NCBI RefSeq assembly: GCF_018977255.1 | Contig: NW_024704748.1 | Coordinates: forward strand, 10,974,001-11,038,000 | DNA from: Callorhinchus milii | Lineage: Eukaryota | DNA length: 64,000 nucleotides | Direction: 5' to 3' | Shown here: one piece after another, positions 15,001-45,000 of the stretch | How the letters are laid out: every line of letters begins with the position of its first letter | Position numbering within the stretch: the stretch's first letter is position 1 | Made by a program: the position numbers

Positions 15001-18000
15001 ATCCAGACCTTAATGTGAAGCGCTTTGAGACGTCTTGAAGACGTGATAAGGTACTGTATCAAATGCAAGGATTATTATTAATAATGTCCATCAAACACGC
15101 TGACAGGACATCAGCGGACTGGGATTCTCAGCTAGAGGAGGAGAAGTAGATTTGGGTGTCATCCGCATACATATGGACGTTGACCCTACATCTGCTGATG
15201 ACATCACCGAGAGGGAGCATGCAAGCCAGAAATGTATCATCAAATCTGTGAGCGGCAGTGAGGGCAGAAATTGTGTTTAATGCAGTACGAGTGTACAGCA
15301 ACCTGTGCTGTCTTACAAGCGACAGCCAGGAGCAAAACCACAAAGCCCACCGGGCCATGTAACCAGTGGGGGTTGGTGTTTTATTCATCAATCTGACAGT
15401 CCCAACCTTCCATTTTCCGAGGAAATTATTCCTTCTAAAACCTCGTGTTCATTTCCCTTCAAATTCCACACTCACGCTCGCTCAGCCCTTCGCAATCATC
15501 GTGACAAAACATTTGTCCATTAACATCTCAGTCGTCTAGATGTACGCAGTCAGTACAGGTGCTAATAACTGAGAAACCATTTAGTGATTTTACACTGCGG
15601 CTGAATATTTCATGATGCTCTGTGTGTTTCACCATTCAGTCAATGGACCTCTGTCACTTCAATCTCTTCTGACTGCCTTGACTGGTGCTGAAAAGCTCCA
15701 CCAAGATAGCTATCTTTCACAAACTGTCACTCATCGCAGCCTGTCACTGGCAAACTCTGCCGAACACTGTTACTCACAGGGAATAACTGCGACATTTGTT
15801 GCACCGTAATGCTCTGTTCTGATGGATCTGAACAAATGCGTTGTGATTAATAGACCTAACATTTGCAGACTACAATTAGAACGGGGTATCCGATGACCTT
15901 CTGCAATCCATCAGAAGAGTGTTAATTTCATATAAAGAATGTTGGGCTGGCACTCGTTAGAACTTGTTATAGTGAAGGCTCAAACAGTTCTGTGCTTGGT
16001 GTTCAAGCTGCGTTTAGCAATTCCAATTTGATGCTGACTAGACAGCACTAGCAGGGATGACTATTCTCCCTCAGTCCCACTTCGCCAGGCAATGAAAGCA
16101 AGCTGCTCTTTGAAATGTTGAGCTCCCATCATGCAAACTGACAAAGGCATGCTTTTCAAAACCCACATCCAAACTGTTGATCATTACTTATTTACAATGG
16201 CCTTGAGGCACATCTGCCTGTAAAAACCATATTTGATACAATATATACCATTTTTTTCACCTTTGTGCAATAAGAACCCCTTAGGCTGCTTTAAACCAGC
16301 ACTTCATATTGCCCATAAAATGTACCTTGTAATTCCAAAATATGTAATATTTAAGGTATGATATATCTTCGGGAAACGAATTTCTGAAAGCCCGGGTGAT
16401 TCTCTGTTCAGTAATTCCACGTTTTGCTGAGGACTACAACTTGAGAAAGCTCCACATAGCACAGAAGACCTGTCATTCGACTACCCGAGGGCCACTAATA
16501 TAAAGGATTACCCTACAGCGGCAAAAGTTCGGCACAGCTTTGAAGCATGCCAAAAGAGTGCAACCCACTCCCCAGAATTATTACTGCGCAGAGATCAAAA
16601 GAGGTTGGTGCATATTTTACTTGGTAAACAGGGACCTTCTGTTCTTCTGGAAAAAAAAGGGTTTGGAGCTTCTGTAAACCCCAAGCAATTTTCTTGTACA
16701 ATTGTTTCATATGCTAAGTGGATGAAGCTGTTTACTTGTCAAACACCGAGCGCAGGTTAACCCGTGACACGGCAACAACCAAATGTTCCTCTCACTCATC
16801 ACCAGCTCATAAACTTCCCGTTACCTAACCCGCCAATTATTTAGCTCTCCCCCCACCCCCCGCCCACTCTCTCTCTCTTTGGAGTCAAAATCAATTAATG
16901 ACAATTTAATGCAAAAGGACAAGATAAAAGGAATGTAAAAATTTGGGTTCATTTTTCATTGTTACGATACATCTCACATATGGCCTCAAGTACAGAAAAC
17001 AGTACTCCAAGGGACTCGCAGACACAGGGAATAGCCTGAGGGAAGATAACCGTATGAGTCTTTCTGATTGGTTACTGCTGTCATTAGTGCCATTGCTGTT
17101 TAAGAAATACATGTGGACAGACTGAGGTGACAGCTGAGAGTTTAAAGCCTGCATTCTCTCTAACAGCTTTGCCTACCCTCTTTCATGACAGAAATTTTTC
17201 AGCTCTATCATTAACCGCTGACAGGCTGACAGAATAAATACTTCAGCCTTTAAGGATTTTTCTCGCTTGCTCCCTTTCTCTTCAGACAGAGAGTTCTTTA
17301 GCTGTCTTTTCTTACCTCATCAATTTGGGCGAACCGTTGGGTGAATTTCGCATGCCTCCGTTGCGCTGCTTTTTTTTGGGTGACAATGCTGATGGATGTT
17401 CATCTTCAACTGCAACTGCAAACATACGGAAGATGTGAGATTAGGAGCCATTTTCAGAAGGATATGAAATGGAAATTAAATATTTAAAAAAATGCATATT
17501 TAAACAGAAAGTGACTCATTATAAAAGTTAAAGATCTCCACTATATAGCAATGAACAGTTACTCGGGGAAAAGAAAAGAAAATCAAATGAGGACTAAGTA
17601 CGGGCTAACGTGTTAATCAAAAACAAACCAGTTCAAAACCCTAATGGCATGACTAAGATAATCTAGCACTCAAGATTCCTAAGCACTAAACACACACGCA
17701 CACACGATATCAATTAAAGGAAAGTGGAAAACATTTTTTAATCAAAACAGGACGCACAGGGAAGGGACAACAGTTTTAATTTGGGAGGTTGTGGGTGAAG
17801 GAACCATCTGCCCCACTCAGAAAGGGTAAATAACAAAATTGCAGACTTTGTACAGGTTAAATATCTAAAATACAACAGTAATTCTTTTTAAGTAGAAGTC
17901 AAACCACTCAGTTAAAGGAGGTGTCACTCTAGAGCATGCAGCATTAACGCACTATTTCTGGCTCACAACCTTCAATGTTGAACCAGCATTGACTAGGGGA

Positions 18001-42000: not shown

Positions 42001-45000
42001 TGGCAAAAAAAAACATTGCACAATAGGCAAGTTGCCCCAGCATTATCCGGGCACCGTAGCCGTAAAATCTTGCATTGCATGTTTTAATGCATTCAGGCAC
42101 AGTAGCAAAGTAACTCCCGGTAAGAAATTAAGAACATTACTTACGCCGTTTGCAGCCACACTTTTTAATCCTTTTGGGATCTGTGATGTCATCGTGACAC
42201 GCTTTGCAGTAGAAGAATGCCCTGCGGAAAGACGATATAAAAATGATGCTCGAAGTCTGACTCCAGCTATGTGAAGTGTTATTCAATGTAAAGGGTGCTA
42301 CATTAATGCAGGTTGTTATCCAGTTTTGCAATTACAGTGCAAGTTAAATAACCTTCTGCTGCCACTTTATCCGCATCTCTCAGCATTTTCAAGATCTGGA
42401 TAATATCCCCTTCTGAATATTTTCTGCAGCTAAACCAACCAGGTTTTCAGTCGAACCTTAAAATACAAGAGCAACTCTGTTGCGTTTGAATTTTTCAAAA
42501 CTGGTTTCAAAGGCCGGTCTCAAGACCTTTCTCTTCGACCATGCCTTCAGCTCCCCTCTCGACTCTCTACCCCCTCCTCGCTCCCTCCCCTCACTCTGAC
42601 CATTTCCCCCCCCTGCTCGCGTCCTGACCCAACTGTCCAGCGCCTTGGGACGTCCTCCCGACGTGAAAGGTGCTCTATAAATGAAATCTTGTTGTTGTTG
42701 TTCCTGAATTGCGTTCATCAAGGTACTGGTTGTTAGGTGGCAAGTTTTATATTTCAGACTCCCTGTTGCTTTATCGTCGTCTCCAACACCAATCTTTGAC
42801 CAAAACTCTAACATGGCCTAATGCACTAGTGTACTATTTCCATTCCCCACCCCAACTGTCCTTGTGGCGTCTCTTAGTGACAATTAGTAGTACTGGTGAC
42901 TTCGGTGCTCGAAATTGGTATTGGATCTCAGCCTTCTAGTTGAGAGTCCAAAACTCGGTCCCACACCTCATAATCTTTCATTGAGCAGCTATTTTTCACA
43001 CACTTGTTTAAAGATTCACTGCCAGATCTTTCCAGAAAATAGGTTAAAGATTTTTATTGTTCAATCACTGCATTAATAGCAATGACTGAGATTCATTCTC
43101 GTACAGGTTTGGATAACAGGGCATGAAAGCTTTCCCCCAAAAGGGCAGTATTTCATTCACTGCATTTAACATATGAAACAATTAAGTGAAAGTAGACAGG
43201 AATTGTCTCGTTATCAAGAATAATAATAATAATCCTTGCATTTGATATAGTGCTTTTCACGTCTTCTAGAATAGACTGTAAAGTGAATTAAATGTATAGT
43301 TGTGAGCAACATGCGGCAGCCAATTGCACATAGCAGTGTCCCACAAACAGTCGTGGATTGAAGTGACCAATTTATTATTGTTTTTTTTCTTGATGGATTA
43401 TTATCAGGAGTGTGGAGTAAGGAAATTTGCCCAAGGTTTCACCCTACCAGGAATCAAATCAAAGGGACCACCTACCTTTTTACTTCTTTGGCATCACTTG
43501 CAATGAAAAATCCCAACGTGCCTTCTTGAATCTTGACGTTGTTCCCAGGATTGATTAATATGCTACTCAGTAAAAAAACACAAAAAATACGTTCCCATTA
43601 GCTGCTGTTTGAGAGAAACTTCATCTCAATAGTGTAATAATCAAAGGGGAATGGTACAAGGATCTTTACTGAAAAGAAGTCACTCTCAAATGGATTGCAC
43701 TAACTCCTGATAAAATTCAACGGCTGAATACATTTCACAGATGACTGTGAATGATTCAATTGACGCCTGAAATGAAATGGATTATTGGATTCTTAATATT
43801 TAGATGCATGGTTAGCAAAATACCATCTGCTTGACAGCATCTCCCAAAATAAGTTCTCACTTTTCTCCAATTCTATAGCCTTCTGATAACAAAGCAGAAG
43901 TAAAAACCTTCTTCTGGATATTGGTAACTCCAAACTAAATACTGCTTCTAATTCAGGTATAGTTTTGATGCTTATTCCTGCAGATTTTCCATTATCTCTC
44001 TCCAAAACACACTTTCTATCTCCTTGCGACCTAAATTACCTCCTTCGTGTATTGAGGACACTCCCTCCCCATATCATGATATATTTTCCAACTGAGAAGG
44101 TTGGTGATCTCTTGACCTCAGGCATATTGTTTCTGAGCCAACCACAAGGAAATGTTTGCACATATTTCCTGGGTGTCCGTTCTCAAAATTGCCCTTCACA
44201 ACTATGTACGTGTGTTCTCTTATCCTGCCTGCTCTCATCACAGAAAAACACCCTCTTTTTCTGGGTTTATTTTCTTCAACTTATTCAACATTTTATATAC
44301 TTCTATCAGATCCTTTCTGAGATGTTTCTTTTTAAGACTGCAATAAACATCATGCTAAAAATCAGTTACTGTAGCCTGTACAATTCCCCAGTGATTGAAA
44401 CGTTATTTGCAACATAATTCATTAAATACTGTTTGAGCTATGTGCATAATGACACATAGCTTAAAGTACAAGGCAATACAAATCTAGATTATAACTAGTA
44501 CACAGCACAGCTATATGTTAGGTTCGGTAACCTGGCCCAAAGGAAAGAGATGGCTGATACACTGACGAGATTCACAACGCCCGAGTATGTTATCAGACTG
44601 CAGACTGATATCCTGCAATAACCCCAATTGTTCAGAATAAACATCCAGCTCATTCTTCTGGGCACTCTCAGTACTCTTAGTTGGACAAGATATTCAGCTT
44701 TCTGCTCACAAAGGAAAGAGGATAGAAAGCAAATGCACACTTAGGACATGGCATGTTCAAAAGAAAGAGTAAAATTGCTTCCAGGATTTAACTTCTTGCT
44801 CTTGATGGCTTTTAAGGCCATTATTTTTATTAGCCGAGAATAGAAGCCTTCCATTGGTTACCTGGTCTATTGCAAGATCGCTTCCAAATATAATGGTGAT
44901 TGATTTTATATCTGGACAAAATATTATTGCCCCGACTGAAGAAACTGAAGAATATACATTCCACTGCATTCCTGCAATGATCAAATAGCAATTTACTATT

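What the first reader, a model, noticed from the sequence alone, without database searches (positions are those of the whole stretch)
17410..42144. Expanded array of phase-1 cassette exons in the RCK1-RCK2 linker (site 2)
Seen: this 25-kb intron contains well-supported frame-preserving phase 1-1 units of 9, 174, 33 and 288 nt plus a +6-nt acceptor. Further candidates lie at 39082-39192, 25955-26026 and 21075-21143, with an orphan acceptor at 36686. Known: mammalian site 2 has IYF, STREX and a 29-aa exon; I did not find the 29-aa exon here. Inference: a larger, partly lineage-specific combinatorial toolkit for tuning BK. This may matter in cartilaginous fishes, where BK tunes electroreceptor oscillations.
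Basis: partly seen in the sequence, partly recalled or inferred. Interest (0 to 1): 0.65.

Follow-up and report, generated by a model that had tools for sequence, protein, structure and literature searches.

The report
Ancient BK-channel linker cassette exons
This intron of the elephant-shark BK potassium-channel gene holds four optional in-frame exons that are shared with bony vertebrates rather than special to cartilaginous fishes, and one of them is missing from the gene models examined here.

Summary
The window is Callorhinchus milii KCNMA1 on the minus strand. The 24,735-nt intron between 42221-42145 and 17409-17316 holds four real phase 1-1 cassettes: IYF (40518-40510), STREX (37318-37145), a 33-nt exon (25593-25561) and a 288-nt exon (20695-20408). 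It also has a +6 acceptor at 17415.

IYF, STREX, the 33-nt exon and the +6 acceptor are already in the 12 public C. milii protein models. The 288-nt exon is in none of them. It is the ortholog of a 92-119-aa site-2 insert annotated in birds, a newt, sturgeon, gar, tarpon and teleosts, with invariant LVNNRKGSL and RL.RA.SLPVKYR.H motifs. A mandarin-fish isoform carries all four units in the same order. The array is therefore ancestral to jawed vertebrates, not lineage-specific.

The "missing" mammalian 29-aa exon is most likely the 5' third of the 288-nt exon (by eye). The candidates 39082-39192, 25955-26026 and 21075-21143 and the acceptor at 36686 are no better than chance and match no model. 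The 33-nt exon is the insert in the skate ampullary BK cDNA.

The parts
42145..42221 (-). Constitutive exon upstream of splice site 2 (equivalent of mammalian exon 19). Encodes ..[25 protein letters not shown] and ends after the first base (C) of a split codon.
   Evidence: sequence, cag|G..C|gtaagt. (tblastn of C. milii model P0123, identical inside the exon).
40510..40518 (-). IYF micro-exon, 9 nt (TGATCTATT), phase 1-1. Gives L-I-Y-F before the downstream exon and L-I-Y-S before STREX.
   Evidence: gatag|TGATCTATT|gtgagt. C. milii models P0246 (LIYFAV) and P0123, P0243 (LIYS+STREX). (junction codons).
37145..37318 (-). STREX exon, 174 nt, phase 1-1: P-KISIYKRMKLACCFDCGGCERDCACMSGSVHSNMDTLERTFPLSSVSVNDCSTSLRA-F.
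   Evidence: 100% identity to C. milii XP_007896679.1 (P0123), 88-93% to the other 119 listed hits; in 4 of 12 C. milii models.
25561..25593 (-). 33-nt cassette exon, phase 1-1: P-KYNYNGFITS-I. It has the best splice sites of any open phase 1-1 unit in the intron.
   Evidence: tcttcag|CAAAG..TCAA|gtaagt. (top score, 20.1); identical in C. milii model P0252 (UniRef A0A4W3HPP0); orthologs in Chiloscyllium, Scyliorhinus and Hemitrygon; sturgeon, teleosts, Amia; skate ampullary cDNA KY355737.
20408..20695 (-). Long cassette exon, 288 nt, phase 1-1: L-KDEAEPGLLNDSLRAHSTKPHTLPNTVPITEGPEAVRLVNNRKGSLYLSSDPSLRRLSLLNTSDQGRGAQCRLQRARSLPVKYRYHPNNTTFNDL-F. It is absent from the 12 C. milii models. It is the ortholog of the long site-2 insert of birds, newt and ray-finned fishes, and probably of mammalian exon 22.
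   Evidence: T-rich acceptor tttatttttttttacttggcag|, donor TCT|gtaggt. (197 hits, named ones all KCNMA1). (insert sits exactly between ..CGCKR and EDE..). (tblastn E 1e-14 to 7e-23). (alignment, invariant motifs). (86/95 identical to the relative P0003).
17410..17415 (-). Six bases (TTGCAG) added when the upstream AG of a tandem acceptor is used. They insert Ala-Val before EDEH.
   Evidence: sequence. (acceptor score 6.7 against 3.3 for 17409); 6 of 12 C. milii models read ..AV-EDEH and 6 of 12 do not.
17316..17409 (-). Constitutive exon downstream of splice site 2 (equivalent of mammalian exon 23): (L)[31 protein letters not shown].
   Evidence: (identical to the C. milii models).

Best explanation
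The interval is the splice-site-2 (C2) intron of the elephant-shark (Callorhinchus milii) BK channel gene KCNMA1, in the disordered linker between RCK1 and RCK2. It holds four cassette exons: IYF (9 nt), STREX (174 nt), a 33-nt exon and a 288-nt exon, in that order. The downstream exon also has a tandem acceptor that adds 6 nt.

Every cassette starts and ends in phase 1. Any subset can therefore be spliced in without changing the frame, and only the junction residue changes (L, P, S, I or F). This gives up to 2^4 x 2 = 32 in-frame linkers. Six patterns are already in public C. milii models.

The set is not a cartilaginous-fish invention. The same four units in the same order occur in ray-finned fishes, and the long exon also occurs in amphibians and birds, so the array dates to the common ancestor of jawed vertebrates. 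The 288-nt exon is the one part missing from the C. milii models. Its first third is poorly conserved and corresponds to the mammalian 29-aa exon 22. Its last two thirds carry two invariant motifs, LVNNRKGSL and RLQRA(R/L)SLPVKYR(Y/F)H.

Inferred, not shown: these basic-residue/serine motifs are kinase (and possibly 14-3-3) sites, so the exon would add a phospho-regulated module to the linker, as STREX adds an acylated, kinase-sensitive one. The three further candidates and the orphan acceptor are chance AG..GT open frames.
For: Gene and species. STREX is 100% identical to C. milii XP_007896679.1. All nine exon matches of that model in the window are identical inside the exons.

Existing models. 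The site-2 patterns of the 12 C. milii models are L (3), LAV (3), LIYFAV (1), LIYS-STREX-FAV (2), P-STREX-F (2) and PKYNYNGFITSI (1). All are reproduced by the window units and by the junction codons computed.

Elasmobranchs. Of 15 listed models, 5 read L, 6 STREX, 1 IY+STREX, 2 the 33-nt exon and 1 STREX plus the 33-nt exon.

Long exon. The search gave 197 hits at E<=0.01. Every named protein among the best 120 is a KCNMA1 or BK model: birds, Lissotriton, Acipenser, Lepisosteus, Megalops and teleosts. In all 108 hits with both flanks, the insert lies exactly between ..KKCGCKR and EDE... tblastn places these inserts at 20696-20415 with E from 1e-14 to 7e-23. In the alignment, LVNNRKGSL and RL.RA.SLPVKYR.H are invariant in 10 of 10 sequences. 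The C-terminal part is 33-39 of 54-60 identical to bony vertebrates, the N-terminal part only 8-11 of 33-37. Both exon ends fall within one codon of the orthologs' ends (..FNDL|F against chicken ..NQDL|L). An unnamed close relative keeps the frame open with 86 of 95 identical residues and no indel.

Order. Siniperca X2 reads L-IY-S, STREX, KYKYNGYVRS, a teleost-only 26-aa unit, then the long exon. Amia X2 reads STREX+KYNFNGYIRS+I. Sturgeon reads KNNYNGYVRS+I+long exon.

Expression of the 33-nt exon. The skate ampullary cDNA KY355737 carries PRYGYNGYLSTI at this site (PMC10486799, Table 1 and passages).
Against: No transcript evidence for inclusion of the 288-nt exon in C. milii was available. 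It is in 0 of 12 C. milii models and 0 of the 15 listed elasmobranch models (only 15 of a 100-member cluster were listed). No elasmobranch-like ortholog appeared in the two searches, so the exon may be lost or unused in sharks and rays.

The donor of the 288-nt exon is weak by my matrix (2.8). Four internal in-frame donors score 3.8-4.5, so shorter forms are possible.

The link to mammalian exon 22 rests on a by-eye comparison with the rat insert printed in PMC3393747 Table 1, not on a computed alignment. The kinase/14-3-3 reading of the motifs is inference from consensus patterns that I recall; no tool tested it. Pfam and the PDB hold nothing related. The splice-site matrix was written from recalled consensus frequencies and gives STREX, a real exon, only 1.4. 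A low score alone therefore cannot reject a candidate.
Confidence: 0.85

Rival explanations
1. The intron holds an expanded, partly lineage-specific toolkit of seven or more cassettes: the four units plus 39082-39192, 25955-26026, 21075-21143 and an exon using the acceptor at 36686. These would have evolved in cartilaginous fishes, perhaps for electroreceptor tuning.
For: All named units are open AG..GT phase 1-1 frames. 21143-21075 has a strong donor (9.9). Lineage-specific site-2 exons do exist elsewhere: a 26-aa unit in teleosts and a 51-aa unit in passerines. A weak splice-site score does not exclude an exon, because STREX itself scores 1.4.
Against: Units of this quality are as common on the antisense control strand (sum>=3, 382 sense against 251 antisense; sum>=8, 90 against 55). 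The acceptor at 36686 is matched or beaten by 43 of 1508 sense and 31 of 1629 antisense AGs. There are 0 matches to 299 stored proteins, including 12 C. milii and 15 elasmobranch models, while the 10-aa positive control found 11. The four good units are not lineage-specific.
Confidence: 0.05
2. The 288-nt open frame is a conserved relic or a conserved intronic element that is no longer spliced into mRNA in C. milii. Under this reading the working array there is only IYF, STREX, the 33-nt exon and the +6 acceptor.
For: The exon is in 0 of 12 C. milii models and 0 of 15 listed elasmobranch models. Its donor is weak (2.8). No elasmobranch ortholog was found.
Against: The frame is open for 96 codons. 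The two motifs (9 and 15 residues) are identical to those of sturgeon, gar and tarpon, which is hard to keep without selection on the protein. The acceptor is strong and T-rich (9.5; only 13 of 1508 AGs reach this). A related species keeps 86 of 95 residues without any indel, against 24 of 31 in the flank read in the same frame. Automated models often miss rarely included exons.
Confidence: 0.1

Closest known systems
Mammalian KCNMA1 splice site C2: alternative exons between exons 19 and 23 (IYF, STREX, exon 22)
   Same: Same gene and same intron. Same flanking exons (..KKCGCKR | [13 protein letters not shown]) and same phase. IYF and STREX are clear orthologs. [quoted passage not shown] PMC3393747 Table 1 prints the rat 29-aa insert and a further 29-aa extension.
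   Different: No 33-nt exon is described in those passages. The rat insert stops at ..PKPV, where the window and bird exons continue into LVNNRKGSL..SLPVKYRYH. At the homologous spot the window reads G|TGCGG, so it has no GT and cannot make the short form in frame. The exon numbers 20 and 21 and the paper of Chen et al. 2005 are recalled or seen only in reference lists.
Siniperca chuatsi kcnma1a isoform X2 (P0118) and other ray-finned-fish models (Amia X2 P0125, Acipenser P0005, Lepisosteus P0101, Megalops P0097)
   Same: The same cassettes in the same order: IY, STREX, K-Y-x-Y-N-G-[FY]-[IV]-x-S, then the long exon. The junction residues match those predicted from the window.
   Different: Teleosts have an extra 26-aa unit, (A)DGATTPGNSGSQKEAGVRFKADCNL, between the 33-nt and long exons. 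It has no counterpart in the window. Teleost long exons are longer (117-119 aa). Gar also uses a donor 27 nt further downstream.
Bird and newt KCNMA1 isoforms with a 99-aa site-2 insert (e.g. Gallus gallus X4, X5, X14, X15; Lissotriton helveticus X1)
   Same: Ortholog of the 288-nt exon: both ends within one codon, both invariant motifs, and 35 of 60 identical residues in the C-terminal part.
   Different: The N-terminal third is only 8-9 of 37 identical. No 33-nt exon was seen in any bird model retrieved. Some passerines add a 51-aa unit upstream of IYF that has no counterpart in the window.
Little-skate ampullary BK cDNA KY355737 (12-aa insert at splice site 4/c2)
   Same: The insert PRYGYNGYLSTI sits at the same junction. 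It is orthologous to the window's PKYNYNGFITSI (PMC10486799 Table 1; shark and ray models).
   Different: Different species. That paper calls the insert unique to that sequence and discusses it only as a spacer in a bipartite nuclear localisation signal. No functional comparison with and without the insert was seen in the passages read.

Membership tests
KCNMA1 (BK alpha) splice site 2 / C2 in the RCK1-RCK2 linker | The flanking exons encode ..[12 protein letters not shown] and (L)[19 protein letters not shown], and the intron interrupts a codon after its first base. | tested here: met
   (sequence). (identical to C. milii KCNMA1 models).
STREX exon | A 174-nt (58-aa) phase 1-1 cassette with the Cys-rich core ..KRMKLACCFDCG..DCxCMSG.. 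| tested here: met
   (687 hits at E<=0.001; 100% identity to the C. milii model).
STREX exon | Functional hallmarks: acylation of the cysteines and altered kinase regulation. | not testable with these tools
   Only the abstract of PMC2963414 in the listing (palmitoylation within STREX) and recall.
IYF micro-exon | A 9-nt phase 1-1 cassette giving L-I-Y-F, upstream of STREX. | tested here: met
   Models P0246, P0123 and P0243.
33-nt site-2 exon of fishes (skate KY355737 type) | A 33-nt phase 1-1 cassette, [KR]-Y-x-[YF]-N-G-[FY]-[ILV]-x-[ST], lying between STREX and the long exon. | tested here: met
   identical to P0252; 11 matches among stored models.
Long site-2 exon of non-mammalian vertebrates | The insert lies directly between ..CGCKR and EDE.. 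and carries LVNNRKGSL and RL.RA.SLPVKYR.H. | tested here: met
Long site-2 exon of non-mammalian vertebrates | The exon is actually included in mRNA of this species. | not testable with these tools
   No transcript data. 0 of 12 C. milii models include it.
Mammalian exon 22 (29-aa insert) | Sequence homology to the 29-aa insert, and a donor directly after ..P-x-P-V. | tested here: inconclusive
   By eye only. The rat insert in PMC3393747 Table 1 lines up with the N-terminal third of the chicken exon (..AR..Y.K..[FY]..KN.T....P.PV). The window has no GT at that point. The rat sequence was not put into any tool.
   (no better than the antisense control). (0 matches in 299 proteins).

The most novel reading that the evidence does not exclude
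The 288-nt exon is the ancestral, full-length form of mammalian exon 22. It has been kept from chimaeras to birds because it encodes a regulatory module of the RCK1-RCK2 linker built on two invariant basic-serine motifs (RKGS and RARSLP, the latter also fitting a 14-3-3-type pattern). Mammals truncated it to its variable first third. The module has never been tested functionally, and in cartilaginous fishes it is not even annotated.
Probability: 0.45. Interest if true: 0.55.

Novelty: new member of a known kind. Interest (0 to 1): 0.3.

Why it matters
The result corrects the proposed picture. The rich site-2 cassette array is not a cartilaginous-fish speciality. It is the ancestral jawed-vertebrate state, and mammals keep only a reduced version.

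It adds one concrete annotation to the elephant-shark gene: a 96-codon exon at 20695-20408. It also points to a deeply conserved linker module that has not been studied as far as my searches show (LVNNRKGSL ... RLQRARSLPVKYRYH). BK physiologists could test this module in chicken, fish or shark channels.

It links the 33-nt exon of this window to the insert in the BK cDNA cloned from skate electroreceptor organs. That is the only part of the electroreception idea with evidence behind it.

Tried and rejected
1. I looked in the window for the teleost 26-aa unit and the passerine 51-aa unit with tblastn at E<=10. Only weak matches off the site or on the wrong strand appeared, so these are not present here.

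2. Self-comparison of the window: none of the eight units overlaps a repeat seen twice in the window. Repeats therefore neither explain nor exclude the candidates.

3. Splice-site scoring cannot serve as a sole filter. STREX scores 1.4 and IYF 6.8, so I used homology and an antisense control instead.

4. Pfam and PDB searches with the long exon and STREX returned 0 families and one chance-level hit (E 0.49).

5. A search for shorter relatives of the long exon gave 32 unnamed open frames. One is chicken-like and the rest teleost-like by eye, and none is elasmobranch-like.

6. A mammal-type short form of the long exon: there is no GT at the homologous position. The GT one base earlier would shift the frame.

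7. Literature on the long exon: the searches listed no paper that describes it. PMC2897565 (chicken cochlea splicing) is not held. Chen et al. 2005 and Fodor & Aldrich 2009 were not read. My recollection that a Xenopus variant named for a 99-residue insert exists could not be verified.

8. I ran no further search on the 36-aa peptide of 39192-39082. One representative per 50% cluster would rarely be the isoform that carries an insert.

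
Full report
Setting. The window has no N. On the minus strand, 42221-42145 encodes ..[25 protein letters not shown] and ends one base into a codon. 17409-17316 encodes (L)[31 protein letters not shown]. These are the exons that flank splice site 2 (C2) of the BK channel gene KCNMA1, in the RCK1-RCK2 linker. The intron between them is 17410-42144, 24,735 nt. A search with the STREX exon alone gave Callorhinchus milii XP_007896679.1 as the top hit at 100% identity. A local tblastn of that model against the window gave nine exon matches, all identical inside the exons. 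The window is therefore elephant-shark KCNMA1, a holocephalan gene and not a skate or shark gene. Each exon was searched on its own.

The four 'well-supported' units. The units are:
- IYF at 40518-40510 (gatag|TGATCTATT|gtgagt);
- STREX at 37318-37145;
- the 33-nt unit at 25593-25561 (tcttcag|CAAAG..CTCAA|gtaagt), which has the best combined splice score of all open units in the intron (20.1);
- the 288-nt unit at 20695-20408, with a T-rich acceptor and a TCT|gtaggt donor.
The '+6 acceptor' is the tandem ttgcag|TTGCAG|TTGAAG at 17415/17409. By my matrix the upstream AG scores higher (6.7 against 3.3).

What is already annotated. The 90% cluster of the C. milii protein holds 12 C. milii models from RefSeq and UniRef. 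Their site-2 strings are L (3 models), LAV (3), LIYFAV (1), LIYS-STREX-FAV (2), P-STREX-F (2) and PKYNYNGFITSI (1). Each string is exactly what the window units give. This includes the junction residues computed from the last base of one unit and the first two bases of the next, and the Ala-Val of the +6 acceptor. IYF, STREX, the 33-nt exon and the +6 acceptor are therefore already in public models. Of a 100-member elasmobranch cluster, 15 models were listed: 5 read L, 6 STREX, 1 IY+STREX, 2 the 33-nt exon (PKYGYNGYISSI; Chiloscyllium, Scyliorhinus) and 1 STREX plus the 33-nt exon (Hemitrygon). None of these 27 models has the 288-nt unit.

The 288-nt exon. Searched alone against longer proteins, it found 197 proteins at E<=0.01. 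All named proteins among the best 120 are KCNMA1 or BK models: many birds (including Gallus X4, X5, X14 and X15), the newt Lissotriton, Acipenser, Lepisosteus, Megalops and teleost kcnma1a. In the 108 hits that contain both flanking motifs, the matching segment lies exactly between ..KKCGCKR and EDE.. and is 92-119 aa long on its own. tblastn of those inserts against the window lands on 20696-20415 with E from 1e-14 to 7e-23. In a ten-sequence alignment, LVNNRKGSL and RL.RA.SLPVKYR.H are invariant. The part from RLVNN onward is 33-39 of 54-60 identical between the window and bony vertebrates, and the first third only 8-11 of 33-37. Both exon ends coincide with the orthologs' ends to within one codon. 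The top hit, an unnamed 249-aa read-through frame (P0003), is 86 of 95 identical over the exon without indels, against 24 of 31 in the 3' flank read in the same frame. I take this as strong evidence for a coding exon under purifying selection in the chimaera lineage. Its use in mRNA is not shown. A search among proteins of similar length gave 32 unnamed frames. One is chicken-like and the rest teleost-like by eye, and none is elasmobranch-like. Whether sharks and rays keep the exon is therefore open.

Order and age of the array. Siniperca kcnma1a X2 reads L-IY-S, STREX, KYKYNGYVRS, a 26-aa unit, then the long exon. Amia X2 reads STREX, KYNFNGYIRS, I, EDEH. The sturgeon model reads KNNYNGYVRS, I, then the long exon. 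This is the order in the window (40518, 37318, 25593, 20695). The four-cassette array therefore predates the split of cartilaginous and bony vertebrates. Lineage-specific additions do exist, but elsewhere: the teleost 26-aa unit, a passerine 51-aa unit upstream of IYF, and a gar donor 27 nt downstream. The first two have no counterpart in the window.

The 'missing' 29-aa exon. PMC3393747 Table 1 prints the rat C2 insert as KVEARARYHKDPFMHKNATPNSPHVPKPV followed by a 29-aa extension taken from the intron. By eye, the first 29 residues line up with the N-terminal third of the chicken exon (VKNAARSSYPKSSYQFKNTT....GAPEPV). They share ..AR..Y.K..[FY]..KN.T and the closing P.PV. After that point, chicken and the window continue with (P/R)LVNNRKGSL. 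I infer that mammalian exon 22 is the ancestral long exon cut short by an internal donor. In the window that spot reads G|TGCGG, without GT, so only the long form is in frame. This comparison was not computed, because the rat sequence is not a stored sequence.

The further candidates. 39192-39082, 26026-25955 and 21143-21075 have splice sums of 2.9, 2.1 and 9.3. The intron holds 1935 open phase 1-1 AG..GT units on the sense strand and 1537 on the antisense strand. 382 against 251 reach a sum of 3, and 90 against 55 reach 8. The acceptor at 36686 (7.4) is equalled by 43 of 1508 sense and 31 of 1629 antisense AGs. None of the four peptides matches any of 299 stored proteins, while the 10-residue control from the 33-nt exon finds 11. 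None overlaps a within-window repeat. I treat them as chance. Two caveats apply: the matrix is home-made, and STREX itself scores 1.4.

How it works. Shown: all cassettes are symmetric in phase 1, so each can be included or skipped independently. The junction residue (L, P, S, I or F) is set by the neighbouring bases. Six of the 32 possible patterns are annotated. Known from others' work: STREX is palmitoylated (abstract of PMC2963414 in the listing). The two basic clusters that flank site 2 act as a bipartite nuclear localisation signal in skate BK, and inserts would lengthen its spacer (PMC10486799, abstract and passages). The skate ampullary cDNA KY355737 carries the 12-aa insert PRYGYNGYLSTI and lacks STREX (bioRxiv 10.1101/274449, passages). 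Inferred: the invariant RKGS and RARSLP of the long exon look like basophilic-kinase sites, and the second also fits a 14-3-3-type pattern (recalled consensus, untested). The long exon would thus add a phospho-regulated module to a disordered linker. There is no Pfam family and no solved relative.

Novelty and limits. Three cassettes and the +6 acceptor are already annotated in this species. The long exon is annotated in many other vertebrates by automatic pipelines. New here are its presence in a cartilaginous fish, the dating of the whole array, and the proposed relation to mammalian exon 22. My searches listed no paper that describes the long exon, but the key subscription papers are not held and were not read. 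Supplementary Table S1 of PMC10486799 was not opened. Several things stayed unchecked: transcript data, other chondrichthyan genomes, the two closed contig collections, and 85 of the 100 members of the elasmobranch cluster.

Noticed in passing
window 20384-20407 (minus strand, just 3' of the long exon's donor): Read in the exon's frame, the intron continues CRFPLSCT. Gar has annotated isoforms that extend the exon by CMFPSAGCT, and many teleost read-through frames continue CRLPP. The first bases of this intron therefore seem conserved across jawed vertebrates, as expected for a regulated donor or a splicing control element. The window has no in-frame GT at +24 to +33.
   Followed up: partly
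window 17410-17415: By my matrix the +6 acceptor scores higher than the canonical one (6.7 against 3.3). Half of the C. milii models (6 of 12) use it, but none of the 15 listed elasmobranch models has the Ala-Val. The tandem acceptor may be specific to holocephalans.
   Followed up: partly
window 18428-18555, 19757-19893, 21904-22207, 29555-29843, 30571-30772: Short interspersed repeats occur up to 11 times in the window. They contain a ..RRLEDV..ISNARIII..-like translated core. They were not classified.
   Followed up: no
window 43475-43567 / 49775-49840 (exon junction at splice site 1): C. milii model P0252 has one extra Ser at the [11 protein letters not shown] junction compared with the other 11 models, which suggests a 3-nt alternative splice. 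No SRKR-type micro-exon with AG/GT flanks was seen between these exons; the single SRKR-coding match near 46070 lacks splice sites.
   Followed up: no
window 37319-37376 (upstream flank of STREX): The intron just upstream of STREX, read in frame (ITLPLTCSSSSPSIENMIIA), is closely matched in an unnamed read-through frame P0124 (ITLPLTCCSSSPPIQHMVIA). That frame's STREX is of the bird or bony-vertebrate type. This suggests conserved intronic sequence next to the weak STREX acceptor.
   Followed up: no
window 12001-16000 and 50001-52000: These are local rises in G+C (0.47-0.50 and 0.45) with strong positive GC skew (0.11-0.23 and 0.28), inside other introns of the gene. They were not examined.
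   Followed up: no
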